DNA of 64,000 nucleotides from an uncultured Clostridia bacterium (GTDB lineage Bacteria > CAYTYR01 > UBA6262): the NCBI GenBank assembly GCA_964441745.1, contig CAYTYR010000003.1, positions 35,348 through 99,347 on the forward strand, in the 5' to 3' direction. Below the pieces are notes generated by a model that searched no databases, was not told the DNA's origin, and worked only from the letters and a program-made list of their open reading frames with translations. A program made the position numbers and the translations under genes. This document shows, piece after piece, positions 20,536-38,323 of the stretch (position 1 is the first letter of the stretch; every line of letters begins with the position of its first letter).

Positions 20536-20543
20536 TTATCCTT

Positions 20544-21275: not shown

Positions 21276-21288
21276 TACTTAGCTCCTT

Positions 21289-21336
21289 TCAAAGCTCTAT
21301 CTGATACTGCTGGTTTGGGTCAAAATGGAGTTTCAT
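21289..21336 (-). repeat. R2: duplicated copy of res 5' end forming a 15-codon mini-ORF (MKLHFDPNQQYQIEL)
   Basis: ATGAAACTCCATTTTGACCCAAACCAGCAGTATCAGATAG matches the real res start (20497-20535) with one mismatch by eye, then diverges into the Fic RBS. Confidence 0.7.
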
Positions 21337-21369
21337 TATTTATTTCTCCAACTATTTCCAATATTCTTA

Positions 21370-21398
21370 TTGACATCATGGCGCCAATGCTGTAATAT
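21370..21398 (+). promoter_or_regulatory. consensus-like sigma70 promoter (TTGACA-17 bp-TAATAT)
   Basis: TTGACA at 21370-21375, 17-bp spacer, TAATAT at 21393-21398, in a 400-bp noncoding gap and pointing antisense to the RM operon. Confidence 0.5.
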
Positions 21399-21404
21399 TA
21401 TATT

Positions 21405-21550
21405 AGGCAATAATGCTAATAATTTTGGATCGGGGTGTCCCCGGTCGGTATTAATGAGCGGTAAGTCCGTTGTGAATTGTTCCAAGTGTTCCCTTCCATA
21501 GGTTGGCTATAGCTTGGACGCAACAAGTTCACAGGGCGCGCTCATTTTTT
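21405..21550 (+). ncRNA. candidate structured small RNA of about 145 nt, antisense to the Type III RM operon
   Basis: downstream of the promoter; local hairpin GATCGGGG-TGT-CCCCGGTC (21427-21446); long-range pairing AATGAGCG (21452-21459) with CGCTCATT (21538-21545) followed by T-run 21545-21550; only coding potential is a 15-aa ORF without SD. Confidence 0.35.
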
Positions 21551-21672
21551 ATTTTATGGCAATTTTGCCTTCATTACCCTTCCCATCACATGACCATCAC
21601 ATAAGATTTGCTTTATTTATCAACACATTTTGCCATTTAACAAATTCACACAAACTTACAATCACATAAACC

Positions 21673-23130
21673 TTAAGACCATATTGGTATATACTTAGCA
21701 TACTTTCTCGATTTATTCTCTGGATCAAAATCTTTAATTAATCTTGCTTTGATGGTATCAGCTATTATTCTTGAAACTATTGAGTAATTCTTTTCATCTA
21801 TTTTAAATCTTTCTCTTAGAGACTGATTGGTCATGTTACTATTTGAGACATATTTTAAGCAACAATGTTGATAACATGCTCTTATTTTATCATCTTTATC
21901 CATCTGCTTTAGAGTTTTATAAGAATACATAATAACCTTCAGAAAATTATCTCCCTCAATGAATTTCGGCGCAGGTAATTGATACTCCTCTACTTTATCA
22001 ATAACTTTATCAATACCGCTCCCTCTTTCTTCACAAATACCTGCCCTCCGCATAAAAGAAGCAACTTTCTCATTTCTTGACTGAGGATGATGGTCAATAA
22101 ACCTTAAAGTGCTAATTAACGGCTTTCCCGGATTAGTAATTTCAATTCTATCGTTAAATATTTCAATCATAGGCCCAGTGCCAATTTCATTAAAATCCTG
22201 ATGGATTAATGCATTGGCTACTAATTCTCTTATTGCTATTTCAGGATACATTTTTACTTCTTTTCTAAATGCTCTTCCTATTTCTTCATTTGCTTGCAAG
22301 TTATCATTAATATAATCAATTAATCCCTCAAATCCATTGGCATATCCTTTAGCCCCAATTTGTTCTTTTTTTGTATGTAATCTGTCATTACCCTTATATA
22401 TAATAACCCTGATTGCCTTCCTATTTAATCTTTCAAAATACGAAAGATTATTGGCTATCAAAATAGTGCCCAAATTAGTAATACTATGGCTATTTATTTC
22501 TTTAAGAATAAATCTTTCTCCTTCTAAATGTTTTAAAATAGCACTTTTATCAGCGGGTAAATTCGACTTCAATATCCTAAAATAACCTGGATAATCTAAT
22601 AATTCAAGTATTTTATCTTCATCCAATTCTTTCGCGGCTATGTCTTTTTCAAAACTATACGCTAGTGTTTTATTCCATATTTTTCTCGCTTTTTCTGGCA
22701 AGTCCTTTAATTTCTTTTTATAACTGCCAACTCTAATATACTCTGCCCCTTTAAAACCTACTGGCGTATTATGAGTAGCATTGATTTCAAACATTACAAC
22801 AGGAACCCCTTCATACTCAAATTCATTAATTCTGAAATCAATTCTCGGACTTAGCAATCTAATTAACCAATTTTCTAATTCCTCATTACCGTTTTTTGTT
22901 TGGCTAGGCTTAAAATCTGTACCAACTACTTTATGGGTCTGATCTTCAATGCCAAAAACAAAATATCCATAGCTTCTATTATGTAAGCAAGCTGAATTAG
23001 ATAAAGCAGATATATACTCCCCAATTTCATCAAGTGAGCAACTTAAATTTTGCTTGAATTCCACCCACTCTGTTTCCTTTGGCAGCATTATAAGTTCTTT
23101 TAATTTATTCTTAAGATCATCTGTGTTCAT
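21673..23130 (-). CDS. AlbA_2 (Schlafen-like) plus HATPase_c_4 domain protein, putative nucleic-acid-binding ATPase/regulator
   Basis: 485 aa; N-terminal ETEWVEFKQ...FVFGIEDQTHKVVG resembles AlbA_2; C-terminal ALIHQDF...IEIFNDRIEITNPG resembles HATPase_c_4; start overlaps R1 mini-ORF stop (ATGA). Confidence 0.65.
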   Translation of the reverse strand: MNTDDLKNKLKELIMLPKETEWVEFKQNLSCSLDEIGEYISALSNSACLHNRSYGYFVFGIEDQTHKVVGTDFKPSQTKNGNEELENWLIRLLSPRIDFRINEFEYEGVPVVMFEINATHNTPVGFKGAEYIRVGSYKKKLKDLPEKARKIWNKTLAYSFEKDIAAKELDEDKILELLDYPGYFRILKSNLPADKSAILKHLEGERFILKEINSHSITNLGTILIANNLSYFERLNRKAIRVIIYKGNDRLHTKKEQIGAKGYANGFEGLIDYINDNLQANEEIGRAFRKEVKMYPEIAIRELVANALIHQDFNEIGTGPMIEIFNDRIEITNPGKPLISTLRFIDHHPQSRNEKVASFMRRAGICEERGSGIDKVIDKVEEYQLPAPKFIEGDNFLKVIMYSYKTLKQMDKDDKIRACYQHCCLKYVSNSNMTNQSLRERFKIDEKNYSIVSRIIADTIKARLIKDFDPENKSRKYAKYIPIWS

Positions 23131-23180
23131 TTTATTTCCTTTGATAGATATCGCTGGTTCGGATCAAAATGGAGCTTCAT
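23127..23180 (-). repeat. R1: diverged copy of res 5' end forming a 17-codon mini-ORF (MKLHFDPNQRYLSKEIK)
   Basis: ATGAAGCTCCATTTTGATCCGAACCAGCGATATCTATC resembles res start; its TGA overlaps the ATG of the 485-aa ORF. Confidence 0.65.
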
Positions 23181-23200
23181 GAAGCAGCCATATATTTTCC

Positions 23201-25084
23201 TTATATGGTTCTGAATTCTATTCCTGCGTCTTTCATTTGCAGGACGGTATTTGTTTTAAGCTTGTCATTGCCGGCAAATAAGGAATCCAGGCACAGGCAT
23301 TTGGCAGGCTTTTGTTTGACTATTTCCTTGATCAGCTTGCTGTTTACCTCAGATAGAATAACAACCATTTCGCCGTTATTTACCGTATAAATCGGCGCAC
23401 CGTCTATTTTTTCTTCTTTCGCGACCGTATTCAGGCCGTAACCGGTTTTCAGAAGTATTTCCCATAGCATATTGGTTTGTTTTGCCTTAGGTTTAACCGG
23501 ATACTCAAAAGCATCCATCTGCTTCTTAAGTTCAGCTTCCTCTGTTATGACATCATTTCGCCAAATCTTAAAATTGGATAGCTTCAGCTTATATACTTTG
23601 AATCCCAGGTCTATTTCTTTAGGCCGCTCTTCCTTGCCTATCTGTTTAATTGCTCTGCGAATTCTTTCTTTGGCGATATCTGCTATGGTTTTATACCCGG
23701 CCTTATAAGCTTCTGTTTCTGCTTCAGTTTTTTCCGGAAGCTGGACGCAGATAAACTTTCTATTCCCCCCATCTTCCTTGTTTAAATCTAAAACAGCATG
23801 AGCAATAGTTCCGGACCCAGCAAAAAAATCAAGAATAATATCATCAGATTCAATACCGGTTATTAATTCTATTAGTTTTTTCATTAATCTTACAGGTTTA
23901 GGTGTATCAAAATACGATTCACCATTAAAAATTTCTTTAATCTCTCGTTTTGACTCCTGATTATCTCCAACTATATCTCTTGTCCATAGAGTTATGGGAG
24001 TAACTGAAGTTTTTACCTCTGATAAAAATCTTTTTTGTCTCGGAATATTGTCTCCATACTCTCCAAACCATATACGATTATCTTTTAGAAGCTCACTAAA
24101 TTTTCTCTCACTAACAACCCAACATCTTCCTTTTGTCGGAAAAACTTTCCTTCCGCTTGGTAAAATTATGGGATATAGTTTTTCCTTGATTTCTGGCCCC
24201 ACCGTTAAATCACCTGATGACCAAGGGCCTCTTAAATCATTATCAGGATTATGATATCTTGAATTAGTTTCTTCTGTTCTTTTTAACCCCAGCACACCTA
24301 GTTTTTCTACATTTTTTGCATAAACTAAAATATAATCATGACTCGTTGAAAATGTGGTTTTTAAATTAATGGGCGAAAATGCTTTCTCCCAAATTATACT
24401 TGCCACAAAATTCTCTTCTCCGAATATCTCATTCATTAACAGCCTGAGATTATGGACTTCATTGTCATCTATGGAAACAAAAATAACTCCGTCTTCACAG
24501 AGCAGATTTCTGGCGAGGAACAGTCTTGGATACATCATGGAAAGCCAATTGGAATGGAAATGGCCATTTTCTTTGTTATTTTTTCTAAATAGCCCTTCCT
24601 TCAACAGATAGCCTTCTTCGTCCTTTTCCCCTATTCTTTTCAGATAGTCTTCTTTGGACTCGGAAAACCGGTCAGGATAGATAAAATTGTCATTGCCGGT
24701 ATTGTAGGGCGGATCGATATAGATCATCTTGATCTTGCCATAGTAGGCTTTCTGCAGGACTTTCAAGACTTCGAGGTTTTCCCCTTCAATGAATACATTG
24801 CCTGTTTTATCAAAATTGACGGATTCTTCAGGGCAAGGAGCCAATGTAGCAGTTGTAGGAGTTTGCAGGACCTTAAAAGCTTCGGACTTACCGGCCCAAT
24901 TAAGGACATATCGCTCATTCTCCAGGGATAGCTCTTCACCTAAAGTAAGCTTGAGCTTCTCCTGATCTATTTTCCCTTCGCTGAATACCTCTGGAAAAAG
25001 TTCTTTTAGTTTCTTTACTTTATCCTTTTTCACATCTACCGATTTTCCATCCATTCCTGTCTCCTCTATTACAAACTTATTCAA
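23201..25084 (-). CDS. mod: Type III R-M Mod subunit, N6-adenine DNA methyltransferase
   Basis: 627 aa; DPPY motif in MIYIDPPYNTG; AdoMet-binding DFFAGSGT; overlaps upstream Fic gene by 8 nt. Confidence 0.9.
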   Translation of the reverse strand: MNKFVIEETGMDGKSVDVKKDKVKKLKELFPEVFSEGKIDQEKLKLTLGEELSLENERYVLNWAGKSEAFKVLQTPTTATLAPCPEESVNFDKTGNVFIEGENLEVLKVLQKAYYGKIKMIYIDPPYNTGNDNFIYPDRFSESKEDYLKRIGEKDEEGYLLKEGLFRKNNKENGHFHSNWLSMMYPRLFLARNLLCEDGVIFVSIDDNEVHNLRLLMNEIFGEENFVASIIWEKAFSPINLKTTFSTSHDYILVYAKNVEKLGVLGLKRTEETNSRYHNPDNDLRGPWSSGDLTVGPEIKEKLYPIILPSGRKVFPTKGRCWVVSERKFSELLKDNRIWFGEYGDNIPRQKRFLSEVKTSVTPITLWTRDIVGDNQESKREIKEIFNGESYFDTPKPVRLMKKLIELITGIESDDIILDFFAGSGTIAHAVLDLNKEDGGNRKFICVQLPEKTEAETEAYKAGYKTIADIAKERIRRAIKQIGKEERPKEIDLGFKVYKLKLSNFKIWRNDVITEEAELKKQMDAFEYPVKPKAKQTNMLWEILLKTGYGLNTVAKEEKIDGAPIYTVNNGEMVVILSEVNSKLIKEIVKQKPAKCLCLDSLFAGNDKLKTNTVLQMKDAGIEFRTI

Positions 25085-26198
25085 AAAGTTTCACATAACC
25101 TTGATAAGCATATACTCGGTTTCTCCTTTGCCCCGTTAATTCTTTTAAAATATCTAATTTAAGCAGTTTTTTAGTCAAGACAATAGCATTGGGATTGGCT
25201 AATCCTGTTATTTGTTCAATATCTTTTATTCTTACCAAGGGCTTTTTATATAATGCGTTAAGCAAAACCATAGCTTTTTCTGAGCGGCCCATGCTTACCA
25301 CTTTCTCTATATCCCTCTGCCTCAGCTTATGGATTTTTCTGGCAGTTTCTACCGCTCTCTCGGCAGTGTCGATTACTCCTGATAGGAAAAATATAAGCCA
25401 TCCTTCAAGATCATCTTTCTCCCGAGCGGTATCAAGCTTATCATAGTAATCTTGCCTGAAACGCTTAAAAAACTCTGATATACACAAAAGTGGTTTATGG
25501 AGAATCTTCTGCTGGCATAAATAAAAAGTAATGAGCAATCTCCCAATTCTGCCGTTTCCATCCAGAAAAGGATGTATCGTTTCAAACTGGTAATGTATTA
25601 ATCCAATTTTAATAAGTACTGGCAAAGGCGCCACATCATGTATAAAACTCTCTAAATTTCCCATTAAGGCTAATACTTCATGCGCTGGGGGTGGAACAAA
25701 AGAGGCGTTTTGCAAAGTCACTCCCCCTATCCAATTCTGGGAGGTTCGAAATTCACCCGGATATTTTCCTTCTCCTCTGACTCCTTTTAGGAGAATGGCA
25801 TGTATTTCTTTAATGAGCCGCAAGGAAAGAGGAAGTGTTTCAAGGCGTTCCAGCCCGTAATCCATAGCTTTTATATAATTCAATATTTCTTCAACATCTT
25901 TATGTATTTCAAAATCTTCCAATTTTGCTTCTGCTTTGAGAACATCAGAAAAAGTAGCTTTGGTGCCTTCTATTTGACTGGAAAGAGCCGCCTCCTTCTT
26001 TATATACATAAAAATAAAGAAATTAACATCTGGCAATACATCAGCAATCCCATCCAATCGACCTAAAGCCAGATCCGCTTTCGAAAGAAGATCCTGCAAT
26101 AAATAATCTTGCTTAATATTAAAAGGCAAGCGGTTAGGTATAAAAGCCTTATATTGCAAATCTCCTTTTAACTGATTAACATAATTCCCTGTTCTCAT
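25077..26198 (-). CDS. fic: Fic family protein with C-terminal winged-helix-like domain
   Basis: 373 aa; Fic motif HPFLDGNGRIGRLL; first gene of the RM operon. Confidence 0.85.
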   Translation of the reverse strand: MRTGNYVNQLKGDLQYKAFIPNRLPFNIKQDYLLQDLLSKADLALGRLDGIADVLPDVNFFIFMYIKKEAALSSQIEGTKATFSDVLKAEAKLEDFEIHKDVEEILNYIKAMDYGLERLETLPLSLRLIKEIHAILLKGVRGEGKYPGEFRTSQNWIGGVTLQNASFVPPPAHEVLALMGNLESFIHDVAPLPVLIKIGLIHYQFETIHPFLDGNGRIGRLLITFYLCQQKILHKPLLCISEFFKRFRQDYYDKLDTAREKDDLEGWLIFFLSGVIDTAERAVETARKIHKLRQRDIEKVVSMGRSEKAMVLLNALYKKPLVRIKDIEQITGLANPNAIVLTKKLLKLDILKELTGQRRNRVYAYQGYVKLFE

Positions 26199-27529: not shown

Positions 27530-29381
27530 TTTTATTCCGGTGTAAGTATATCATCAAGATCGAAATGGCGGCTGGAGTGATACCCGATATGCGCGCGGCC
27601 TGACCGACCGAAGCCGGCCGGAAAGAACTCAACTTTTCCCGTACTTCCCGGGATAAAGCTAAAATGGCCTGGTAGTTAAAATCTGCCGGGATCTTCAGCC
27701 TTTCGACTTTCTTGAATTTTTCTATTTCCCGGGCTTGCCGTTCCATGAATCCGGCATACTTGATCTCTATTTCGATTTCCTGGATCTCCGCCTCGCTTAA
27801 AGCCTGTCCAGAGGGAGACAATTCAGCTATCTGTTTATATGATAGTTCATTTCGTTTTAGCAATAAAGATAATTTAGCCGGATTTTTTATCGCCGGGCTG
27901 TGCCAGAGCGCCAAGCTGTGGTTAGCTTTAGCCGGGGCGATCCTGGTTTTATTCAGCCGTTGTAATTCTGCCGTAATATGCTCTTTCTTGATTAAAAAAA
28001 GCTGGTGTTCTTTCTCACCCACTAATCCCAGCTGGTGGCCAAACTCCCGTAAACGCAGGTCCACATTGTCTTCGCGCAGGACCAACCGGTATTCGGCGCG
28101 GGAGGTGAACATCCGATACGGTTCCGCAGTCCCCTTGGTCACCAGGTCATCAATCAGCACACCGATATAGGCCTGGCTGCGGTCCAGGATAAACGGCGGC
28201 CGGCCTTGCACTTTTAAAGCGGCATTGATACCAGCCATCAAACCCTGCGCGGCGGCTTCTTCATAACCAGTAGTGGCATTGATCTGGCCGGCCAAATACA
28301 GGCCAGGCACTTTTTTCGTTTCCAGGGTTAGCTGTAATTCGGTCGGGTCCACATAATCATATTCTATGCCATATCCCGGATGCAGGATCTTTACTTCCTC
28401 TAATCCAGGGATCGTATGCAAAAATTTTTCCTGCACATCCACCGGCAAACTGGTAGAAACGCCATTGGGATAATATTCATCCGTATCCAGCCCTTCAGGT
28501 TCCAGAAAAATCTGGTGTCTTTCTTTATCCGGAAAACGCTTCAGCTTATCTTCTATAGACGGGCAGTAACGGACTCCGGTTCCCTTGATCACACCGGTAT
28601 AGAGTGGAGACCGGTCAAGATTAGCCAGGATTATTTTGTGGGTTTCCTCATTAGTGTAGGTTAAATAGCACGGGACTTGTGGCAAGAGCGGTTTTTTGGT
28701 AGACAGGGAAAACGGTCGTGGCGGGTCATCGCCAGGCTGTATTTTAGTCTTGGAAAAATCTATGGTTTTTTTATCCAGCCGCGCGCAGGTACCGGTTTTC
28801 AAGCGGCCGGTCTGCAAACCCAGCTGGCGTAAAGATTCAGTCAAGCCAAGGGCTGGCTGTTCATTGATCCTGCCGCCAGGAAAATGTTCCAAACCTATAT
28901 GGATAAGTCCGTTTAAGAAAGTGCCCGGGGTCAGGATCACTGTTTTACTGGTGATAGTTTCTCCCTGGCCAGTCTTGAGGCCGCTGACCTGGCCATTTTC
29001 AGTCAATACTTCCGCTGCTGCCCCCGGCTTGACTTCCAGGTTCGCCTGCCGCTGTACAGCTTCTTTCATATATGTATTATAGCGGTATTTGTCAACCTGG
29101 GCTCGCGTCGACCATACGGCCGGGCCTTTAGAACGGTTCAACACCCGGAACTGGATCCCGCAGGCATCAGTGGCTTTGCCCATTTCGCCGCCAAGAGCAT
29201 CCACTTCTTTGACCAGCTGTCCCTTAGCCAGGCCGCCAACCGCCGGATTACAGCTCATGACTCCTATTTTTTCTGTGTCCATAGTGAGCAAAAGCGTCCG
29301 GCAGCCCATCCGGCTGGCTGCCAGCGCTGCCTCGATCCCGGCATGCCCGGCACCAACTACTATTACATCATAATTTTTCAT
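27516..29381 (-). CDS. mnmG: tRNA uridine 5-carboxymethylaminomethyl modification enzyme MnmG (GidA)
   Basis: 621 aa; FAD-binding [16 protein letters not shown] and conserved MnmG segments throughout. Confidence 0.9.
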
Positions 29382-29436
29382 AAAAAGCTTAACTCCTGAG
29401 TTAAAAGAAAAAATGCACTTTCAAAACGCAAAATAT

Positions 29437-29757
29437 TTATTTAAATCGCTTTAATTTCTCTAAAATGCCAGGGCTAATTTCAGCCTTTGAAATAAGGCCA
29501 TCGGCGATGGCCGGCGCGACAATCATATCAGTATACCCGTTTGTATAGAAACTCCATAAATCGCGTGCGATCCCGTTATGAAATTTATGAATAAAATCAC
29601 TAAGCTCAAACGCGGTTATCTTGTTTTCCTTCCATTGCTTAAATTTATCTTCAAGCGATTTCAAGGCCTTGGACAGATCGCGCTCATAAGCTAATCCGGC
29701 AAGTCTGCGCAATTCTTTTCTTTCAGATTTTGTGAAGCAGTCTTTATTCACAGTCAT
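29437..29757 (-). CDS. hypothetical protein, last gene of the SNF2-SWIM operon
   Basis: 106-aa ORF co-directional and closely spaced with SWIM gene; no family recognised. Confidence 0.4.
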   Translation of the reverse strand: MTVNKDCFTKSERKELRRLAGLAYERDLSKALKSLEDKFKQWKENKITAFELSDFIHKFHNGIARDLWSFYTNGYTDMIVAPAIADGLISKAEISPGILEKLKRFK

Positions 29758-29852
29758 TTCGCCGCCTCGCTCTATAACCTTACCATCCCGCTTTCAAGCT
29801 TTCCAACGCTATTTTTTTATCAGTAATTAATTTTAAAATAAAAATACTCTTT

Positions 29853-30641
29853 TTATTTTTTCTTTTTTCTTTTCATTAACCGAGGGGTCCTGCCTGAACC
29901 GGCTTTTTCATCAAGCTCGATACCGAACATTTCGACTGCGTCCAAATCAGCAATCACCCGCCCGGTCTTTTTATCCGCTTTCTTCAGCATCTTCTTTGAT
30001 TTATCCCGCAAAGCTTCCGTAATCAGATCATCCATTTCGGTTTTACGCAGTAAGAAAAATAGCTTGGGATCATCATCCAATTTTACTCCCACCCCATAAA
30101 GCGTGGCCGCTACATGCTTGCACATACTTGCCCAGTCCGGGCAACTGCAGCTAAACTTAATCTCTTTAGGCGCCGGAAACAACCCCTTCCCTTTGGCGGT
30201 AAACAATTCCATAAGATCCTGGGGAAACCGGCCTTCAATAAGCTCTTGTAAAGATTCGATTTTCCCGGCGCATTTTTTCTTAATATCGTGCCAGGCTTCT
30301 TTGTTCAACGGATTTATTTTTACCGCTACTTTATAAGGATGCGGGCTGGTACCCTGCACCACTGCCGTTACTTCGCCCGGGTTTATTTTAAAATCCAAAA
30401 CAAAACCGTTTCTAACGTAACTGCGGCCCCGGCCGATCCGGTTTGAATAATCCGCATACTTTTCCAGGTTTGCATTCCAGGCTTTGCCCCACCAGGTATG
30501 GGCCAGTTTGTTCCCCTTTAAAATCAAAGGGTTGATCTGAGGATTTTTCTTCTTTAGCTGCGCTAATTTCCGCTGCGCCTTCGCGCATTTTTCTCCAACC
30601 GAAACATACCGGGGAAATCCTGAATAACCATAGTATCCCAT
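29853..30641 (-). CDS. SWIM zinc-finger protein
   Basis: 262 aa; CxC...CxH signature CSCPDWASMCKHV; 23 nt downstream of SNF2 helicase. Confidence 0.8.
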   Translation of the reverse strand: MGYYGYSGFPRYVSVGEKCAKAQRKLAQLKKKNPQINPLILKGNKLAHTWWGKAWNANLEKYADYSNRIGRGRSYVRNGFVLDFKINPGEVTAVVQGTSPHPYKVAVKINPLNKEAWHDIKKKCAGKIESLQELIEGRFPQDLMELFTAKGKGLFPAPKEIKFSCSCPDWASMCKHVAATLYGVGVKLDDDPKLFFLLRKTEMDDLITEALRDKSKKMLKKADKKTGRVIADLDAVEMFGIELDEKAGSGRTPRLMKRKKKK

Positions 30642-30664
30642 AAGCTTATCCTCCTGAAATTATT

Positions 30665-33340
30665 TTACAGCGACAGGGTAAACAGGTTCATTAATTTATC
30701 ATTGTTCATTTCGGTTATCCAGGCCTCGTTTGAGCTTTGGATGATTTCGTTTGACAAGTGTGTTTTTTCCTCAAGCATGGCGTCAATCTTTTCTTCCAGT
30801 GTGCCTCTGGTGATAAACTTATGCACCAGAACATTTTTTTTCTGGCCTATCCGGAAGGCTCGATCGGTGGCCTGGTTTTCCACTGCCGGATTCCACCACC
30901 GGTCAAAATGAATAACCTGGCTTGCCGCGGTCAGATTTAAACCGACTCCCCCGGCCTTAAGCGATAATACCATAAAAGGAACATATTCATGACTTTGAAA
31001 CTTTTCTACGATTTCCCGGCGTTTTTTAACCGGCGTACCGCCGTGGAGGACCAAACCCTGATGCTTAAAGATTGTTTCCAGATATTCCTTGAGCGGTCCG
31101 GTAATTTCCTTGAATTGCGTAAATACTAAAACCTTCTCTCTTTTTTCATAAATTGTTTCACAAATTTCGCGCAACCGCTGAAATTTGCCGCTGTCCGGTT
31201 CGCCATATTCATTCCTGCCCAAATATTGATCCGGATGATTGCAAAGCTGTTTAAACTTCATCAACGAAGCCAGAATCAGTCCTTTGCGCTTAATCCCCCC
31301 GGGTTCCTCTTCCAGCGCGGCTTTTAGTTCCGCCACAAGATTACCGTAAAGAACAACTTGTTTTTTGCTTAAATCCGCGTAAGTTTTCATCTCGACTTTC
31401 TCCGGCAGATCGGAAATAACAGACTTATCGGTTTTCAATCTTCTTAAAAGAAACGGCGCCGTAATTTTCTTCAGCCTGGCGTAACCGCCTGGATGGTCTT
31501 TTAATTCCTTAGAAAAATCGGAAAATTCTTTGCTGCTGCCGAGCATCCCGGGATTTAAAAAATCAAATAACGACCAAAGATCGCCTAAATTGTTTTCAAT
31601 CGGCGTGCCGGTCATAATTATTCTATTGTTGGCCTGCAAATTTTTAACTGCTTTGGTTTGTTTTGTGCCGGGATTTTTAATGGCTTGCGCTTCATCTAAA
31701 ATAACATAATTCCATTTGCGCGCTTTAAGCCAATCATACCTTTTGATTAAAGCATAAGTTGTTATAATAAGATCGTATTTGCCGCTAAAATCCTTGTCCC
31801 GACCGGCCTCGCCGCTATTTTTCTCAAACGAAGGATGAGCGATATAATACCTAATCTCCGGCGAAAATCGGCCTATTTCGCTAATCCAGTTAGAAATCAG
31901 GGAAGCGGGTATGATCAGCAGGCTGGCCGGATTTTGCCTGCTTGTTTTCAGCGTATTTAAGAAAGCCAACAGTTGTATTGTTTTCCCCAGCCCCATATCG
32001 TCGGCCAGACAGGCGCCAAACTGCAAAGAATGCAGGAAATAAAGCCAGTTCAACCCTTTCTGCTGGTACGGCCGAAGTTCTGCCAGAAAGTTTTTGGCGG
32101 GAGTGATTGAATCAATCAGCTCAGGTTTGCGCAGTTTTTCCACCACCCCTTTAAGCCATTCCCCGTTGGAAATACCGGCAGTCTCTCCATCGCTAACCCC
32201 CAGTTCTTTTTGTAAATTAAGCTGCAGATACATGGCCTCTTTTAAAGTTAAAGCGCCTTGTTCCATCAATTGTTGCGCTTTTTTATAGGCTTCCAGAGTT
32301 TTTTCGAGTTTTTCCGGGTCCACCTCCACCCATTTCCCCTTAATAAACGCCAGCCCGGCTGATTCATTTAAAAGTTTTCTTGCCTCCTCTTCCGACAGCT
32401 CGCTGTCGCCGCATAAAAGTTGTGTATTAAAATCAAGCAGCGAATCCTGGCCGAGAAACGACGGCGCTATATTGCCGATCCTGATATCCAGCTTTAGAAC
32501 ACTTGTTCTGTTCTTCCACCAGTTGGGAATCCGGCAAAGTATGCCGGATTTTTCATAGAGAGGAATTTCCTTTAAAATATCATAGGCGTCTTTGGCCGAC
32601 AAGGCCAGCGGATGAAATATTTCCCCGTTTTCAATAAGCCCGGCAATGATCCGGCTGTCTTTGGCGGCTAAATAAACAGTGGCCAAAAGTTCCAGCAGTT
32701 TTTTGTTGTTTTTGCCGTATTCGGTTAAGGCATACTTTAAGGGAATATGCTTGGCTTTCCCCTGCTCGTTTAAGCCGGTAGAATAGGTGGCTAAAAAAGC
32801 AAAAGGAAACTCCTCTTTTTTACTTTCCACCAAATGAAAATAAACCCGTCCGGCCAGATGAACATCAGCGCTGAAAGTTTTAATAAAATCAGCAACGGAG
32901 CCTCTATAAGTTTTCACTTTATGGCTAAAGGTAAGGTTTAGCTTTGACCAAATATCTTTCAGAAAAGACGGGTTTACATACTCTGCCCCAACCATAAATG
33001 GCCGCCGGGACAGAAAATCGTCAATCTCGTCAGTCGTTAAAACAAGCTCTACCCGCTCGCGCAAACCCTCAAGATCGGGTGTTTGCGCTAATTTTTTTAC
33101 ATACCTCTCCCCTAACTTTCTAAAAAATTCCAAACTTGCCGCTAACGGCACGGCTTGATTGCAAAATCCCAGCAACAGGAGAAAAGAGCCAAAGTCTTCC
33201 CGGTAGCTTTTGTATAATTCATTTTGCAGCAATTCCTGATCCTTGTTTAGCGGCTCTGCCCTGTCCTGCCATTCCAGTTCAATACTCTGACCCGGTAAAC
33301 AAACAACTGTTAATTCTTTATTCATTTTCTTTTTCCTCAT
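30665..33340 (-). CDS. SNF2-family helicase/ATPase
   Basis: 891 aa; motif I LADDMGLGKT, motif II DEAQAIKN, SNF2 block GTPIENNLGDLWSLFDF, C-terminal helicase domain. Confidence 0.85.
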   Translation of the reverse strand: MRKKKMNKELTVVCLPGQSIELEWQDRAEPLNKDQELLQNELYKSYREDFGSFLLLLGFCNQAVPLAASLEFFRKLGERYVKKLAQTPDLEGLRERVELVLTTDEIDDFLSRRPFMVGAEYVNPSFLKDIWSKLNLTFSHKVKTYRGSVADFIKTFSADVHLAGRVYFHLVESKKEEFPFAFLATYSTGLNEQGKAKHIPLKYALTEYGKNNKKLLELLATVYLAAKDSRIIAGLIENGEIFHPLALSAKDAYDILKEIPLYEKSGILCRIPNWWKNRTSVLKLDIRIGNIAPSFLGQDSLLDFNTQLLCGDSELSEEEARKLLNESAGLAFIKGKWVEVDPEKLEKTLEAYKKAQQLMEQGALTLKEAMYLQLNLQKELGVSDGETAGISNGEWLKGVVEKLRKPELIDSITPAKNFLAELRPYQQKGLNWLYFLHSLQFGACLADDMGLGKTIQLLAFLNTLKTSRQNPASLLIIPASLISNWISEIGRFSPEIRYYIAHPSFEKNSGEAGRDKDFSGKYDLIITTYALIKRYDWLKARKWNYVILDEAQAIKNPGTKQTKAVKNLQANNRIIMTGTPIENNLGDLWSLFDFLNPGMLGSSKEFSDFSKELKDHPGGYARLKKITAPFLLRRLKTDKSVISDLPEKVEMKTYADLSKKQVVLYGNLVAELKAALEEEPGGIKRKGLILASLMKFKQLCNHPDQYLGRNEYGEPDSGKFQRLREICETIYEKREKVLVFTQFKEITGPLKEYLETIFKHQGLVLHGGTPVKKRREIVEKFQSHEYVPFMVLSLKAGGVGLNLTAASQVIHFDRWWNPAVENQATDRAFRIGQKKNVLVHKFITRGTLEEKIDAMLEEKTHLSNEIIQSSNEAWITEMNNDKLMNLFTLSL

Positions 33341-33456
33341 ATTTGATCTGTTCCATGTTGTTTATTCATATCCGGACACCAGCGTGGACCCAGCATGACC
33401 TATATATCCACATATTCTCAACCGATTCTCAACCGCGTAGGTTGAGGATTGGTTAT

Positions 33457-34602
33457 TCAAACTTCACCTGCATTGCTTACTATCTTGAAATCAACCCCCA
33501 GTTCTTCAAAATGTTTTTTCCCGCAGTGAACTTTATCCGCTTCGTCCGGGCGCAATTTGGCAAGGTCGGCAAATGCCTTTGTTTCCCTTACCAAATACAA
33601 CGTTTGATCACCCTGCTTAACGATTGCCCAATCCGGATTATATGTCCCCAGCGGCGTGGTTACCTTAAACCAGTCCGGCAGCTTAACAAATAATTTAATA
33701 TCCTCACGGCTATCTAAGGCCTGCGCAAAGCGGCGCTCAACGTCAGAATCAAACTCAACCGCATCATAGACCGATTTACCAACGTCCACCTAGAACAGAA
33801 GCCACCTCGATACATTTGACCAACCGCATATCGTATGCTTTGACCGGATCCAACTTATATAGAAGGTTATACGGATTCACATGCGTAGCGGAATAACGAA
33901 GCGTACATAAAGGATTTAATGTTTCGATCGCTTCCTTGGCTTTGTCGGTGTTGTCAACGCTCTGCGGCTCATCGATAATCACAATCGGATGCGTCGCTTG
34001 AATAAACTCGATCGGCTTACGCCCGGAAAAACGATCGTTTTCCCTATGGATAACATTACTCTTCTTCTCATCATCCTTGTCCTCAAGCGTCTTGATTACT
34101 CGTAGCAAACTGCCGTACCTGACTGACCTTCTTGGAATCATACACAAAATAATCGAACGCCACGTTATTGTATAAATGTAAAAAGTGGTCGCGCGTAATA
34201 TCAATGTTTTTGAGAACACCCTCCCGGATAGCAACACTGGGAACAACGATAACAAATTTCTTAAAGCCGTATTTCTTGTTCAGCTCGAAAATAGATCGCA
34301 AATAAACATACGTCTTGCCGGTGCCGGTTTCCATTTCCACAGAAAAATGCCTCCCCTGCAAGACGCCAACCTTCTCAATCTCGTCTTTCTCCTGAATCTT
34401 CCAAACGTTATCCAGAAGCTTCTCATTATCCAGCACAAGGCTATTTCCAACGCCCAACTCTCGAAGCTCAAGAAGCCCGTAAGCTGTAGTAAAACTAACC
34501 TCAAAGTCCGCTCCCGGTCAAAGGCTGGCCGTCAAATACGCTGACCACAGCATTAACGGCATTAAGTTGATATTGTTGATTGGGGTCAAATTTTAATTTC
34601 AT
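33457..34602 (-). pseudogene. res: decayed Type III res gene (frameshifts plus large internal deletion)
   Basis: three ORF fragments in different frames match res 17885-20535: N-terminus MKLKFDPNQQYQL then stop after 33 codons, Walker A METGTGKTYVY fragment, DEPQ fragment, C-terminal nuclease fragment; about 1.1 kb versus 2.65 kb for the intact gene. Confidence 0.8.
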
Positions 34603-35591
34603 TTCTTCTTTCTTCCATTCCCAATCTGTTTAACAATTTTGTCAAAATCACTAATATAATCCTTACCTCTCTCTTTTCTGTAAATTTCGAATTCTTCTCC
34701 GGCCTTTTGAGCGGCTTGTTCGGCGCTTATGCTTCCGGCGTCAGCAAGAAGTTTCCGCTCGCTTAATTTCAAAAATTGATCCAGTTTTTCCACCCAATCC
34801 GCCATCTTCATCAGCCTGCCATTGGTTGCCTGCAATTCCGCAAAATCAAGATACATTGATACAATCAGATTAAGCTGGTTTAGCTCTTTTTCAGAAAGAT
34901 AGTTTTTCGCGATTTTAACATCTTGCGAAGTAATATAATTACCTTTAAAACTGGTAAGCCCCATTAATGGTTTTTGACTATCCGCGCGTTTTACTACAAT
35001 TTCCGCCGCGGTATGGCCGTGAACCGCGTAATGCATTTTATTCTGCACAGTAGCGAAAAACTCTTTAGTAAGATTATCGTCTTTGCGGTAATCAACGCTG
35101 GTAGCGTAAATATCGGTAACTTTCTGGTAAAAATTGCGCTCACTGCTTCGAATATCGCGAATACGCTGCAATAGTTCCTGAAAATACCGCGCTTTCTGCC
35201 CGCCCTGTTTTAATCGCTCATCGTCCAATGTAAACCCCTTGACGATATACTCTTTCAGGCGCTGAGTCGCCCAAATTCTAAATTGCGTTCCGCGAACCGA
35301 CTTGACCCTATACCCAACCGAAATAATGACATCTAAATTATAGCAATTTGTCGGTTTGGTAGAAAATTCGGAATTCCCGAATTTTCTCATCGTCTCCCCC
35401 TTCATAAGCTCTTTTTCTTCATAAATATTTTTTATGTGTTCATTGATTGTGGATTTTGATTTTTCAAACAACTCGGACATCTGATCCTGCGTAAGCCAAA
35501 CGGTTTCATCTTCTATCTTTACCTGAAGCCTTGCCTGCCCGTCTTCAGTTTCGTAAATGGTTATTTTTGCATCCTCAACAGGTTTTTTCAT
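34599..35591 (-). CDS. rhuM: RhuM-family protein inserted between mod and res of the decayed RM locus
   Basis: 330 aa; IYETEDGQARLQVKIEDETVWLTQDQMSELF and SVGYRVKSVRGTQFRIWATQRLKEYIVKGF are characteristic RhuM blocks; stop overlaps res2 ATG (ATGA). Confidence 0.75.
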   Translation of the reverse strand: MKKPVEDAKITIYETEDGQARLQVKIEDETVWLTQDQMSELFEKSKSTINEHIKNIYEEKELMKGETMRKFGNSEFSTKPTNCYNLDVIISVGYRVKSVRGTQFRIWATQRLKEYIVKGFTLDDERLKQGGQKARYFQELLQRIRDIRSSERNFYQKVTDIYATSVDYRKDDNLTKEFFATVQNKMHYAVHGHTAAEIVVKRADSQKPLMGLTSFKGNYITSQDVKIAKNYLSEKELNQLNLIVSMYLDFAELQATNGRLMKMADWVEKLDQFLKLSERKLLADAGSISAEQAAQKAGEEFEIYRKERGKDYISDFDKIVKQIGNGRKKK

Positions 35592-35641
35592 TAATAATCC
35601 CCTCTTTCTCTAACCCAACAGCTAAAGAATTACCGGCATTT

Positions 35642-37563
35642 CTACACCGTCCTAAAATCCTCGACGCCTTTTGATTTCATAATCTGAACAGCATTTGTTT
35701 TCAGCTGATCATTACCGGCAAAACCCTGATCCAAACAAATAACCCTACTGGGCGTTTTTTCAGCCATGGCTTTGATAACTTCTTTGGTCAATTCTTTCTC
35801 CAAACAAATCAGCATCAGCCCACCCTCGATGGAATAAATCGTCTTCCCGGCCATAATGGCTTTTTCGATCTTAGTCGTTAACTCAAATCCCGCCTTTAAG
35901 AGCAGTTCAAAAAGAATGTCCTCTTGCGAACTCTTAGGATTAATATGATCTACATGCATTACAAGTTGCTTCTCAACTATCTCTTTCTGCGCGTCAATAT
36001 CTCCTTCCCAAACCTTAAAAGTAGATTTGGCCAATTTGAAAACCTTAAACCCGAGAGCATTATTACTTAGCAAACTCACCTGAGATCCCGGCTCTTGTAA
36101 AGTTTTAATAATTTTCCTTAGACGCTCTTTACCAATATCGGCTATCGTCTTGAAATCATCTTTTCTGTTTTATCATCGAGAAGCTCTGGGAGTTGTATAC
36201 ATATAAATTTTCTTCCGATGTTATCCTGACGGTTCATTTCAAGAACGGCATGCCCAGTCGTTGCAGATCCAGCAAAGAAATCCAACACATAATCATCTTT
36301 ACCTACGCCCGAGATCGACATCAAATGAGCGATTAATTCAAAAGGCTTAGAAAAAGGAAAATCTATTCCAATTTTAATCAACGCCTTAGATCCGCACGAA
36401 TTTGTAAAAGATTTGTTATCAAACAAGGTATTAGGACGCAACCCCTTTTCTAGTCGCTCATTCAAATAAAGTTTTGTGTATACGTTCCAATTCGCTTGCT
36501 TCCCTTTTTGATCTAACAACGGCGACGTTTTGGTTTTCTTAAAAACAACTCGATTATCTGAAAGGTTCTTTTTGAACGTTTCTTCTGTCCATCTAAATAC
36601 TTTTCCGGCCGGGGGAATCACCTTTGTCCCATCCTGACATTCAATGTAATACCTTTGATTCGGACGCAAGTCTAAACTCGGCATGTATAGCGAAACTTCG
36701 TTGTACTTACCTCTCTTATCTTCGAATTTAAAAAGGCTGACATAATCTTCGTCCGCTTGCGCAGACCGATCAGTGAATTCAGGAAGACTGGATATATGTT
36801 TTGCATACGATAAAATATAATCACACGATGGTGAAAAGTGCGTCCCCTTGTTTGAGGTTAACTTGGACACTCGAGTTACAACATCCAATGCGTTCTCCTC
36901 GCCAAATATTTCATCGCACATTTTTCTTAAATGTGAAAACTCTCCATCGCCAATGCTAATAAAGATTATTCCATCTTCGCGTAATAAATTTCTCGCTAAA
37001 TACAACCGTGGATACATCATATTGAGCCATTTAGTATGGAAACGGCCACTATCTTCTGTATTGGTCGAAAAACGCCTCCCCTCATCATCCATCTGCCCTG
37101 TGTATTTCAAATATGTTTCCAAATTCTCAGCGTAATCGTCAGGATAAATAAAATCACTTCCGGTATTGTATGGCGGATCGATGTAGATCATCTTTATCTT
37201 GCCATAATACGATTTCTGCAAAAGCTTTAAAACCTCAAGGTTATCGCCTTCAATAAACAAATTCTCTGTTGTATCAAAGTTAATAGATTCATCTTTAACC
37301 GGAACAAGCGTTGCAACGCTCGGAGCCTGAATATTCTTGAAACAATCCGCTTTTCCCGGCCAATTCATCCCAAAACGTTCTCGACCAACGTCTGTATTTT
37401 CACCAATTACCACCCGTAATTTATCAATATCTATTTTTAGCCCTTCTGTGAAAACCTCGGGAAACGCCTGCTTTAATTGCCGTAATTTATCTTCCGGGAT
37501 ATTCATGGATTTCAAATCAGCTTTTTTAACTTCCGACATACTATTTTCTCCTTTTAAGATCAA
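35642..37563 (-). pseudogene. mod: Type III mod methyltransferase disrupted by a frameshift
   Basis: N-terminal ORF 36142-37563 (IYIDPPYNTG, DFFAGSATTG) and C-terminal ORF 35642-36079 both align to mod 23201-25084; frame breaks near 36140-36150 at an A-rich tract. Confidence 0.75.
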
Positions 37564-38323
37564 ACCACTTCCCAGCGAATCATAAATAGTGTTTCTTCGT
37601 TAATCCGGGGCTTTAATTTCTTTTCAATCTCATCTATAAGACCGTCCTTTTTATTTTCGATCACTTTAGCTTCCTGCTCATATGCCCGCCACGCGGCATC
37701 CCGCTTGGTTTCGAGTTGACGACGATCTTTCTCCAGCTTGAGTTTCTCCGGTAAATTGGACGCAAGCCGCGACCGCTTCCTTAATTGCGTTTGCAATCTT
37801 GCTTGATGGTTTATAAACATTGCGAAGACGGTGCGCCTCATCGATCACAATTAAATCCCATTGTATCTTTTTGATATAAACATCCATCTTCCGGGCAAAC
37901 TGATACGAACAGATAACAACCTTCCCCTGTTCAAAAGGATTCAAATTACCTTTTTTGATTTCCTGATTAAAATGACGCATTCTCAAGAATAGCGGACGAG
38001 AGAAAAAACTTATCAAGCAATTCCTGATTCCACTGTTTCCTAAGATTGGATGGAACAATAATGAGAATCTTTCGTTTGCGCTCAGCCCACTTCTGGGAAA
38101 TAACCAAGCCAGCCTCAATCGTTTTTCCCAAACCAACCTCATCAGCAAGAATTGCCCCTTTGGACAATGGCGACCGAAAAGCAAACAATGCGGCTTCTAC
38201 CTGATGAGGATTAAGATCAACCTGTGCGTCCGCTAAAGACGCGGCAAGCTTCTGGATGCTGTCTGATGCGCTCCGCTTGGTTAATTCATAAGCAAAATAT
38301 TTAGCGTGATATTCTGTTAACAT
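37560..38323 (-). pseudogene. remnant of a second SNF2/DEAD-like helicase gene
   Basis: three overlapping ORFs in different frames carry helicase motif I (ADEVGLGKT) and motif II (DEAHRLRN); far too short for a helicase. Confidence 0.55.

What the first reader, a model, noticed from the sequence alone, without database searches (positions are those of the whole stretch)
29437..33340. SNF2 helicase, SWIM zinc-finger and small ORF operon at the edge of the defence island
An intact 891-aa SNF2 ATPase is followed 23 nt later by a SWIM protein and a 106-aa unknown ORF, directly next to the decayed RM locus and near a second SNF2 remnant. SNF2-SWIM pairs are conserved in bacteria with no established function, and placement in a defence island makes an anti-phage or DNA-surveillance role worth testing.
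Basis: inference. Interest (0 to 1): 0.55.

Follow-up and report, generated by a model that had tools for sequence, protein, structure and literature searches.

The report
Widespread SNF2–SWIM DNA-motor gene pair
This is an intact copy of a very common, long-recognised but functionally unsolved two-gene module, an SNF2 DNA-translocating ATPase with its SWIM zinc-finger partner. It sits beside decayed restriction genes, the small third ORF is not part of it, and comparison with about 80 other copies gives no good evidence that it is an anti-phage system.

Summary
The three minus-strand ORFs exist as described: SNF2 33340..30665, SWIM 30641..29853 and a 106-aa ORF 29757..29437. The flanking restriction-modification (RM) locus really is decayed.

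**What the pair is**
- The SNF2 protein has every ATPase motif and a DUF3670 N-terminal region.
- Its closest solved relative by a wide margin is Sulfolobus SSO1653/SsoRad54, a dsDNA translocase that stimulates RadA strand exchange.
- The SWIM protein belongs to a large family: 3807 clusters at 50% identity with E<=1e-10.
- In 77 of 77 non-redundant loci holding both genes, SNF2 lies directly upstream on the same strand.
- The two proteins diverge in step and occur fused in a Wolbachia record and in phrog_29996. They therefore act as one unit.

**What it is not**
- No third gene is conserved with the pair. The 106-aa ORF is absent from all 85 related loci and belongs to a separate Omnitrophota small-protein family.
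- Neither the SWIM protein nor the 106-aa ORF matches a PADLOC model convincingly, and no nuclease domain was found.
- Neighbours of the pair are heterogeneous and no more defence-rich close by than 5.5-10 kb away.
- The pair is almost absent from phages.
- Only the closest subclade (>=74% identity across phyla) tends to lie among toxin-antitoxin, RM or CRISPR genes.

**Verdict:** a new member of a known kind with low-to-moderate interest. A defence role is not excluded.

The parts
30665..33340 (-). SNF2-family ATPase gene (891-aa ORF; the true start is possibly the ATG at 33325, giving 886 aa)
   Evidence: ORF. Pfam finds DUF3670, SNF2-rel_dom and Helicase_C. The best solved relative is SSO1653/SsoRad54 (1Z63) at 435 bits, against about 260 bits for ISWI. 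All ATPase motifs are present. The start-codon context is shown.
32081..33340 (-). Family-specific N-terminal region (residues 1-420), including DUF3670 (residues 242-373, nt 32222-32617). Presumed regulatory, substrate-recognition or partner-docking module.
30845..32068 (-). SNF2 ATPase motor (residues 425-832). The Walker A lysine is K453 and the DEAQ box is at 549-552.
30642..30664 (-). 23-nt intergenic spacer with an AGGAGG ribosome-binding site 7 nt before the SWIM ATG. Co-transcription is inferred.
   Evidence: Sequence read. In 77 related loci the spacer median is 22 nt, and the genes overlap by 1-4 nt in 9 loci.
29853..30641 (-). SWIM zinc-finger partner protein (262 aa, strongly basic, with a Lys-rich C-terminal tail)
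   Evidence: ORF. There were 7978 word-index homologues. The representative search found 3807 clusters at 50% identity with E<=1e-10. About 80 invariant columns, including C165, C167, C174 and H176. The protein has 52 K+R against 29 D+E residues. SNF2 is always directly upstream.
30114..30149 (-). SWIM motif CSCPDWASMCKH (CxCx6CxH), residues 165-176
   Evidence: The Pfam SWIM hit covers residues 164-182 at 17.4 bits, below the 19.6-bit cut-off.
29437..29757 (-). 106-aa ORF: adjacent, on the same strand, a real gene, but NOT a conserved component of the SNF2-SWIM module. It belongs to a separate small-protein family, mostly from Omnitrophota.
   Evidence: No homologue in any of 85 SNF2-SWIM loci. 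The family has 110 homologues. Elsewhere it directly precedes SEC-C, SWIM(572 aa) or DUF6880 genes, next to type I RM, RhuM or Fic genes. A 95-nt AT-rich spacer separates it from the SWIM gene.

Best explanation
The locus encodes an intact two-subunit, ATP-driven double-strand-DNA translocase or remodeller. It belongs to the SWIM-associated SSO1653/SsoRad54-type branch of the Snf2 family.

**Shown**
- The motor has all catalytic motifs.
- Its nearest characterised relative is SsoRad54.
- The SWIM gene is always its immediate downstream neighbour, diverges in step with it, and is fused to it in some genomes.
- The small third ORF is an unrelated neighbour.

**Inferred**
- The two proteins form one complex.
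- The basic SWIM subunit, with its zinc finger and Lys-rich tail, together with the family-specific N-terminal region of the motor, selects the target. The target would be a DNA structure or a DNA-bound protein.
- The motor then tracks along duplex DNA without unwinding it. This generates torsion and strips or repositions what is bound.
- The most likely biological role is general genome maintenance. That means recombination or repair in the manner of Rad54, or clearing protein roadblocks from DNA. A dedicated anti-phage role is less likely.
- Its position beside RM wreckage reflects residence in a variable, horizontally exchanged stretch of genome.
For: **Family and motor**
- Domains and motifs are intact.
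- SSO1653 is the best PDB hit at 435 bits, against about 260 bits or less for eukaryotic remodellers.
[quoted passage not shown] **The two genes act as a unit**
- SNF2 lies directly upstream of SWIM on the same strand in 77 of 77 non-redundant loci. The median gap is 22 nt and 9 loci have overlapping genes.
- Identity to the window copy correlates between the two proteins (r=0.91, n=71).
- In a Wolbachia record one protein carries the SWIM core (34% identity, E 1e-29) followed by DUF3670 and SNF2 (36% identity, E 3e-67).
- One PHROG profile of 1189 positions matches both window proteins: SWIM at positions 6-176 and SNF2 at positions 606-1183.

**No effector and no defence signal**
- Pfam finds nothing else in either protein.
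- The SWIM protein and the 106-aa ORF have no convincing PADLOC model: the only hit is a marginal 14-bit PDC-S62 match on the SWIM motif.
- No third gene is conserved with the pair.
- Neighbours are heterogeneous and mostly housekeeping.
- PADLOC hits near the pair resemble those farther away.
- Phage and plasmid copies are rare.
- The family is large and old, with 976 clusters at 50% identity at E<=1e-30.
- GC content of the pair (0.44-0.45) matches the window average, whereas the intact RM island is at 0.35-0.39.
Against: - No member of the bacterial SNF2-SWIM pair has a demonstrated function in the literature I could search. The biological role is extrapolated from one archaeal enzyme, and that study does not mention a SWIM partner.
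- B. subtilis YwqA is grouped in PMC7385302 with RNA-polymerase-associated translocases. Its deletion gave only mild phenotypes.
- The complex itself is inferred, not shown.
- The SWIM protein model is of low confidence (pLDDT 66) and gave no informative fold match.
- The window copy is 74-91% identical to copies labelled Elusimicrobiota, Clostridia, Nitrospirota, Kuenenbacteria, Firestonebacteria, Gammaproteobacteria and Methanoperedens. That indicates recent horizontal transfer.
- In this subclade, 5 of 7 contexts hold toxin-antitoxin, Abi, RM or CRISPR genes. This pattern is typical of accessory or defence cargo.
Confidence: 0.5

Rival explanations
1. The SNF2-SWIM pair is a stand-alone system that defends against phages or other mobile elements. 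The SWIM subunit would sense foreign DNA or a phage protein. The motor would then disrupt replication or packaging complexes, or recruit host nucleases.
For: - In the window it lies between an intact and a decayed type III RM locus, together with RhuM, Fic and Schlafen genes.
- Close relatives lie next to RhuM, AbiEii and HEPN genes (L001), CRISPR-Cas I-E (L095) and PIN/CopG toxin-antitoxin strings (L007). In L009 an AbiE pair is inserted between the two genes.
- The subclade is 74-91% identical across phyla, which implies horizontal transfer.
- Synteny is not conserved even among related genomes.
- Other defence systems use SNF2 motors. ZorD, DpdE and DrmD are the best PADLOC hits for the SNF2 protein.
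Against: - The SWIM protein has no convincing PADLOC model: only a marginal 14-bit PDC-S62 hit on its zinc-finger motif.
- The SNF2 protein falls far below the NCBIfam cut-offs for ZorD, DrmD and DpdE, and their partner genes are absent.
- No nuclease or other effector domain was found.
- Across the non-redundant related loci the neighbours are mostly housekeeping, and no defence family recurs.
- PADLOC content near the pair is similar to that 5.5-10 kb away.
- From memory and untested here, the family is a fixed chromosomal gene pair in whole lineages such as B. subtilis ywqAB and M. tuberculosis helZ-Rv2102. That is unlike typical patchy defence genes.
Confidence: 0.2
2. The pair is a transcription-linked remodeller. 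It would be RapA/HepA-like, recycling or removing stalled RNA polymerase, or a repressor-type remodeller of promoter DNA, as reported for the pneumococcal Snf2 protein that represses the pilus genes.
For: - PMC7385302 lists B. subtilis YwqA among translocases reported to interact with RNA polymerase.
- The NCBIfam model 'pilus expression-regulating Snf2 family helicase' is the second-best hit at 365 bits. That model rests on Basset et al. 2017, which is cited in PMC7899983.
Against: - The hits are to the shared motor only and lie far below the cut-offs: 365 against 1100 bits for the pilus regulator, and 46 against 576 bits for RapA.
- Flaus-type classification separates RapA from the SSO1653 group (quoted in PMC2677860).
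- Deleting ywqA did not suppress the lethality of PcrA depletion, unlike deleting mfd.
- No RNA-polymerase-binding domain was identified.
Confidence: 0.2
3. All three ORFs form one functional three-gene system, with the 106-aa protein as a regulator or adaptor of the SNF2-SWIM complex.
For: - The genes share a strand and are closely spaced, with gaps of 23 and 95 nt.
- Homologues of the 106-aa protein elsewhere directly precede zinc-binding SEC-C or SWIM-type proteins. An affinity for SWIM-like partners is therefore conceivable.
Against: - None of the 85 SNF2-SWIM loci has a homologue (tblastn E<=1e-3).
- No third family is conserved with the pair.
- In its own family the small gene comes first and overlaps its partner. 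Here it comes after the SWIM gene, separated by an AT-rich 95-nt spacer.
- The 572-aa SWIM partner in L091 shares only the roughly 23-residue zinc-finger motif with the window's SWIM protein.
Confidence: 0.07

Closest known systems
Sulfolobus solfataricus SsoRad54 (SSO1653/SSO1655; PDB 1Z63, 1Z6A), founding member of the SSO1653 subfamily of Snf2 ATPases
   Same: It is the best solved-structure hit, at 435 bits over residues 416-890. Both have the same motor with all Snf2 motifs. [quoted passage not shown]
   Different: - Only the motor is compared. The N-terminal 420 residues have no solved relative.
- The interaction with RadA and the recombination role were shown for an archaeal protein, and that paper does not mention a SWIM partner.
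- Whether the bacterial pair acts with RecA is unknown.
[quoted passage not shown] 2017, PMC5512222). From memory these include B. subtilis YwqA-YwqB and M. tuberculosis HelZ(Rv2101)-Rv2102. RefSeq annotates such pairs as 'DEAD/DEAH box helicase' plus 'SWIM zinc finger family protein'.
   Same: - The gene order, spacing and domain content match 77 other loci.
- They also match annotated Bradyrhizobium plasmid copies.
- DUF3670 and the SNF2 domains are present in the motor, and CxCx6CxH in the partner.
   Different: - The window copy belongs to a subclade that is unusually similar across phyla (74-91% identity).
- That subclade often lies in toxin-antitoxin, RM or CRISPR islands.
- The score is below the cut-off of the SCO1167/SCO6262 equivalog (527 against 1200 bits).
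- The link to YwqB and Rv2102 rests on memory and was not tested here.
Fused SWIM-SNF2 proteins (phrog_29996; the 'SNF2/RAD54 family helicase' in Wolbachia phage WO record MN180251)
   Same: The same two modules occur in one polypeptide.
   Different: - The order is reversed: SWIM lies at the N-terminus in the fusion but is encoded downstream in the window.
- Identity is 34-36%.
- The annotated Wolbachia CDS ends inside the motor and may be truncated.
SNF2 motors of defence systems: Zorya ZorD, Dpd DpdE and DISARM DrmD
   Same: The Snf2 ATPase core is shared (PADLOC 432, 391 and 126 bits).
   Different: - Scores are far below the NCBIfam equivalog cut-offs: 273 against 1500, 42 against 500 and 106 against 950 bits.
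- No ZorABC, Dpd or DrmABC genes are nearby.
- No Mrr-like nuclease domain is present.
- Those systems have no SWIM partner.

Membership tests
SSO1653/SsoRad54-type, SWIM-associated Snf2 ATPases | Snf2 N-lobe and Helicase_C with intact motifs I-VI (GxGKT, DExx, TGTP, arginine finger) | tested here: met
   Pfam scores are 230 and 75 bits. The motifs lie at residues 450, 549, 577, 797 and 823.
SSO1653/SsoRad54-type, SWIM-associated Snf2 ATPases | Closer to SSO1653 than to any other Snf2 subfamily | tested here: met
   1Z63 scores 435 bits, and the next hit (ISW1) scores 261 bits. No formal phylogeny was made.
SSO1653/SsoRad54-type, SWIM-associated Snf2 ATPases | SNF2-associated N-terminal domain DUF3670 (PF12419) | tested here: met
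   105.5 bits against a cut-off of 27.6, at residues 242-373.
SSO1653/SsoRad54-type, SWIM-associated Snf2 ATPases | A SWIM-domain partner encoded next to the motor or fused to it | tested here: met
   In the window the spacer is 23 nt. SNF2 is directly upstream in 77 of 77 related loci. Fusions exist.
SSO1653/SsoRad54-type, SWIM-associated Snf2 ATPases | dsDNA-stimulated ATPase and translocation without strand separation | not testable with these tools
   This is known only for SsoRad54 (PMC2677860).
NCBIfam NF058637, SCO1167/SCO6262 family helicase (equivalog) | Score at or above the curated cut-off of 1200 bits | tested here: not met
   526.7 bits, covering only residues 292-889.
SWIM zinc finger (PF04434) | CxCxnCxH signature in a beta-beta-alpha context | tested here: met
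   C165, C167, C174 and H176 are invariant in 18 sequences. The model places a strand at 161-165 and a helix at 175-190.
SWIM zinc finger (PF04434) | Pfam gathering threshold | tested here: not met
   17.4 bits against 19.6 bits. This is a short-motif family and the hit is borderline.
SWIM zinc finger (PF04434) | Zinc binding | not testable with these tools
Zorya type I (ZorD) | ZorD equivalog score, a C-terminal nuclease domain and adjacent zorABC genes | tested here: not met
   273 bits against a cut-off of 1500. No nuclease domain was found. The neighbours are RM fragments and mnmG.
DISARM (DrmD) and Dpd (DpdE) | Equivalog score and companion genes (DrmA/B/C, or DpdA-K) | tested here: not met
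   DrmD_b scores 106 against 950 bits, DrmD 71 against 610 bits and DpdE 42 against 500 bits. No companion genes are present. The separate SNF2 remnant at 37560-38323 is the DrmD-like one.
RapA/HepA | RapA equivalog score | tested here: not met
   46 bits against 576 bits.
Any catalogued anti-phage system (PADLOC-DB 2.0.0) | Specific models for all components, and recurrent placement in defence islands | tested here: not met
   The SWIM protein has only a 14-bit hit on the zinc-finger motif (PDC-S62). The 106-aa ORF has none. PADLOC hits in near and far neighbour sets are similar.

The most novel reading that the evidence does not exclude
The SNF2-SWIM pair, or at least the horizontally mobile subclade to which this copy belongs, is an uncatalogued two-gene system that defends against phages or other mobile elements. 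It would use a nuclease-free DNA motor guided by a zinc-finger sensor. Its relatives in model bacteria, such as ywqAB and helZ-Rv2102, would then share that role.
Probability: 0.15. Interest if true: 0.65.

Novelty: new member of a known kind. Interest (0 to 1): 0.3.

Why it matters
The SNF2-SWIM pair is one of the most widespread prokaryotic Snf2 modules. It comprises thousands of clusters at 50% identity and was found in at least 598 species-representative genomes by one strict pattern scan. It still has no assigned function. Work on any tractable member would fill a real gap in how bacteria use chromatin-remodeller-type motors.

This particular copy adds little beyond another example. Three results here are useful for planning such work:
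- The pair is a self-contained two-gene unit, supported by natural fusions.
- The motor carries a well-folded 420-residue N-terminal region with no solved structural relative.
- One subclade is being exchanged between distant phyla and lands in defence and toxin-antitoxin islands.

Tried and rejected
- **Exact-sequence look-ups.** Look-ups of the 891-aa and 886-aa SNF2 products found nothing. The only contig returned, a Logan assembly, breaks inside the SNF2 gene. The window's own public record could therefore not be identified, and the organism is only inferred to be Omnitrophota-like from the 106-aa family.
- **SWIM protein structure.** The model from 18 sequences reached only pLDDT 66, and Foldseek against the PDB gave nothing below E 0.2.
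- **AlphaFold-database fold search.** The library was unavailable.
- **Viral fold search** of the N-terminal region found nothing.
- **Promoter and terminator scan** of 29200-33700 gave no more sites than shuffled sequence, so it offers no evidence about transcription units.
- **Literature.** Searches for YwqA/YwqB, HelZ/Rv2101/Rv2102, DUF3670, SCO1167, sll1366, and SWIM+SNF2+defence found no functional study of the bacterial pair. Basset et al. 2017 is not held.
- **ZorD, DpdE, DrmD and RapA membership** was rejected on curated cut-offs and missing partner genes.
- **A link to the Dpd system** through the nearby Fer4_16 (queG-like) gene was rejected. That hit is below threshold and no DpdA is present.

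Full report
**1. Observation**

The region 29437-33340 holds three consecutive minus-strand ORFs exactly as described.

- **SNF2 gene.** The 891-aa ORF (33340..30665) carries DUF3670 at residues 242-373, SNF2-rel_dom at 425-704 and Helicase_C at 720-832. All Snf2 motifs are intact: GLGKT at 450, DEAQ at 549, TGTP at 577, GGVGLN at 797 and QATDRAFRIGQ at 823.
- **Start codon.** A second ATG five codons in (33325) has a better-placed AGGA. It would give 886 aa, matching homologues of 886-888 aa.
- **SWIM gene.** After 23 nt containing AGGAGG comes a 262-aa ORF (30641..29853). Its CSCPDWASMCKH (CxCx6CxH, residues 165-176) is invariant among 18 homologues. Pfam's SWIM model scores just under threshold, 17.4 against 19.6 bits. 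The protein is strongly basic, with 52 K+R against 29 D+E, and ends in a Lys-rich tail that varies in length among homologues.
- **106-aa ORF.** A 95-nt AT-rich spacer separates the SWIM gene from the 106-aa ORF (29757..29437). mnmG starts 55 nt after that ORF.

**2. Surroundings**

Downstream on the minus strand lie:
- mnmG;
- a lipoprotein-like ORF;
- a weak Fer4_16 protein;
- an intact type III RM system, with Mod at 23201-25084 and Res at 17885-20668, interleaved with two Fic genes and a Schlafen/AlbA_2 protein. This block has low GC of 0.35-0.39.

Upstream lie:
- a type III Res gene broken into three fragments (33457-34457);
- a RhuM gene;
- a Mod gene split into 473-aa and 145-aa pieces that align to residues 28-458 and 493-627 of the intact Mod;
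- a fragmented SNF2 gene (37560-38323) whose best match is DISARM DrmD.

'Edge of a defence island, next to a decayed RM locus and a second SNF2 remnant' is therefore accurate. The SNF2-SWIM pair itself has the window's average GC of 0.44-0.45.

**3. What the pair is**

- **Closest solved structure.** The motor's best hit among solved structures is Sulfolobus SSO1653/SsoRad54, at 435 bits and E 5e-129. Eukaryotic ISWI, INO80 and CSB score 230-260 bits.
- **Size of the SWIM family.**
  - The word-index search gave 7978 hits, with 60-91% identity among the best 120.
  - A full HMMER scan of representatives at 50% identity gave 6205, 3807 and 976 clusters at E<=1e-3, 1e-10 and 1e-30.
- **Gene order.** In the 77 non-redundant fetched loci that contain both genes, SNF2 is always immediately upstream on the same strand. 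The median gap is 22 nt and 9 loci have overlapping genes.
- **Co-divergence.** Identity to the window copy correlates between the two proteins, r=0.91 over 71 loci.
- **Natural fusions.**
  - A 946-aa 'SNF2/RAD54 family helicase' in a Wolbachia phage WO record aligns at residues 7-175 to the SWIM protein (E 1e-29). It aligns at residues 597-946 to the DUF3670 and motor region (E 3e-67).
  - One PHROG profile of 1189 positions matches both window proteins in the same order.
- **Conclusion.** Together these results show that the two genes are one functional unit. A physical complex is the natural inference.

**4. The third ORF**

- It is a genuine gene family of 110 homologues. The named ones are all Candidatus Omnitrophota, and one exact match lies on a 121.9-kb NCBI contig.
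- None of the 85 SNF2-SWIM loci contains a homologue.
- Clustering all neighbours found no third conserved family. The next most common cluster occurs in 14 of 79 loci and is generic.
- In its own contexts the small gene directly precedes, and usually overlaps, a larger gene of varying type:
  - a 492-aa SEC-C protein (L089, L090);
  - a 572-aa SWIM/DUF6880-type protein with a weak PADLOC PDC-S62 match (L091);
  - a 105-aa DUF6880 fragment (L087, L088).
- These cassettes lie beside type I RM, RhuM or Fic genes.
- The 572-aa SWIM protein shares only the zinc-finger motif with the window's SWIM protein.
- I conclude that the 106-aa gene is an independent neighbour, possibly an orphaned first gene of a different cassette.

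**5. Is the pair a defence system?**

Evidence against:
- The SWIM protein and the 106-aa ORF have no convincing PADLOC model; the only hit is a marginal 14-bit PDC-S62 match on the SWIM motif.
- The SNF2 protein hits ZorD, DpdE and DrmD through the shared motor. It is far below every NCBIfam equivalog cut-off, and none of their companion genes is present.
- I sampled 145 ORFs of at least 120 aa within 3 kb of the pair from the non-redundant related loci. They matched 242 Pfam families, and none occurred more than 3 times. The families include methyltransferases, ferredoxins, EF-Tu-type GTPases, GGDEF, TrkA, MCP and GntR.
- PADLOC hits in that near set were one or two type I RM systems, one JetB, RhuM and mad2. 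In a control set of 140 ORFs lying 5.5-10 kb away they were one CBASS system, mad3, mad8 and AriA. This comparison is crude because only the top 25 families are reported.
- Homologues of the SWIM protein occur in 1 of 50,697 phage records. They occur in 145 of 72,556 plasmid records, mostly Streptomyces, Bradyrhizobium and Cupriavidus megaplasmids.

Evidence for:
- The window copy is 74-91% identical to copies labelled Elusimicrobiota, Omnitrophota, Clostridia, Nitrospirota, Kuenenbacteria, Firestonebacteria, Gammaproteobacteria and the archaeon Methanoperedens. That similarity implies recent horizontal transfer, although MAG labels can be wrong.
- In this subclade 5 of 7 non-redundant contexts contain toxin-antitoxin, Abi, RM or CRISPR genes:
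  - the window itself;
  - L001, with RhuM, AbiEii, BrnT and HEPN genes;
  - L095, with CRISPR I-E and AAA_14;
  - L007, with CopG, DUF2442 and PIN genes;
  - L009, with an AbiE pair inserted between the two genes.
- The other two contexts are housekeeping (L003 and L005).

This pattern fits cargo of variable genomic regions. It is not specific to defence.

**6. Mechanism**

- **Shown elsewhere.** The only biochemically studied close relative, SsoRad54, is a dsDNA-dependent ATPase. It alters DNA topology, does not unwind DNA, binds RadA and stimulates strand exchange (PMC2677860).
- **Other leads.**
  - B. subtilis YwqA is described as poorly characterised and is grouped with RNA-polymerase-associated translocases. 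Its deletion has mild effects (PMC7385302).
  - A pneumococcal Snf2 protein is reported to repress the pilus genes (Basset 2017, cited in PMC7899983). The window protein matches that NCBIfam model only through the motor.
- **My inference.** I commit to a two-subunit dsDNA translocase. The basic SWIM subunit and the N-terminal region provide targeting, and the motor remodels DNA or evicts bound proteins. Its role would be in recombination, repair or roadblock clearance. The generic mechanism is well grounded. The biological role is inference, and I give the whole statement a confidence of 0.5.
- **Rivals.** Defence against phages or mobile elements, 0.2. A transcription-linked role, 0.2. A true three-gene system, 0.07.

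**7. Comparison with known families and novelty**

- The pair is a member of the long-recognised SWIM-associated Snf2 group, named in PMC5512222. To my recollection it was first noted when the SWIM domain was described in 2002.
- It meets every sequence-level criterion I could test. It fails the specific equivalog cut-offs for SCO1167, ZorD, DrmD, DpdE and RapA.
- It is therefore a new member of a known kind. Interest is low to moderate (0.3), because the family's function is a genuine open question but this copy offers no special handle on it.
- The most novel reading still open is an uncatalogued nuclease-free defence module, to which I give about 15%.

Noticed in passing
window 29437-29757; L087:6001-6626, L089:6001-7813, L090:5004-6829, L091:6001-8026: The 106-aa ORF belongs to a small-protein family of 110 homologues at 49-100% identity, mostly from Omnitrophota. 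Elsewhere the gene directly precedes, and usually overlaps, a variable zinc-binding partner. The partners seen were a 492-aa SEC-C protein, a 572-aa SWIM/DUF6880-type protein that weakly matches PADLOC candidate PDC-S62 (47 bits), and a DUF6880 fragment. These cassettes usually lie next to type I RM, RhuM or Fic genes. This may be an undescribed two-gene cassette. In the window the small gene has no downstream partner.
   Followed up: partly
window 33457-38323: This is a decayed composite locus. It holds DrmD-like SNF2 fragments (37560-38323; PADLOC DrmD 104 bits) and a Mod gene split into 473-aa and 145-aa ORFs (36142-37563 and 35642-36079). It also holds an intact RhuM gene (34599-35591, equivalent to PADLOC PDC-S05) and a type III Res gene reduced to three fragments (33457-34457). 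Only RhuM looks intact.
   Followed up: partly
window 17885-26198: An apparently intact type III RM system has Mod at 23201-25084 and Res at 17885-20668. Three extra genes are interleaved with it: a Fic_N/Fic gene (25077-26198), a Schlafen AlbA_2/HATPase_c_4 gene (21673-23130) and a second Fic gene (20544-21275). GC content is 0.35-0.39 against about 0.44 elsewhere, which suggests a foreign island.
   Followed up: no
L009:4783-6990; L069:5819-9994; L038:3788-4909: In three relatives the SNF2 and SWIM genes are separated by inserted DNA. In L009 (Kuenenbacteria) the insert is an AbiEii toxin gene with a presumed AbiEi partner. In L069 it is about 4.2 kb of small ORFs on the opposite strand. In L038 the SNF2 gene looks split.
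   Followed up: partly
L092:5983-8823 (Wolbachia phage WO record MN180251): This is a natural fusion of the SWIM-protein core to DUF3670 and SNF2. The annotated CDS ends in the middle of the motor domain, so it may be truncated or a pseudogene. The PHROG profile for the family is 1189 positions long.
   Followed up: partly
L095:5225-9944: In an Omnitrophota MAG whose SWIM protein is 81% identical, a 686-aa TPR/PRiA4_ORF3 protein overlaps the start of the SNF2 gene by 11 nt. A type I-E CRISPR-Cas locus begins about 4.5 kb downstream. A PRiA4_ORF3-like gene also precedes the 106-aa family member in L091.
   Followed up: no
window 33320-33345: The SNF2 start is ambiguous. The ATG at 33340 gives 891 aa. 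The ATG at 33325 gives 886 aa, has a better Shine-Dalgarno spacing and matches homologue lengths. Neither product is on record in the gene-position index.
   Followed up: yes
L086/L094 (Logan contig SRR13007709_63410): An independent short-read assembly of the same sequence breaks inside the SNF2 gene, leaving only the last 94 codons. The break could reflect a repeat or strain variation at this point.
   Followed up: no
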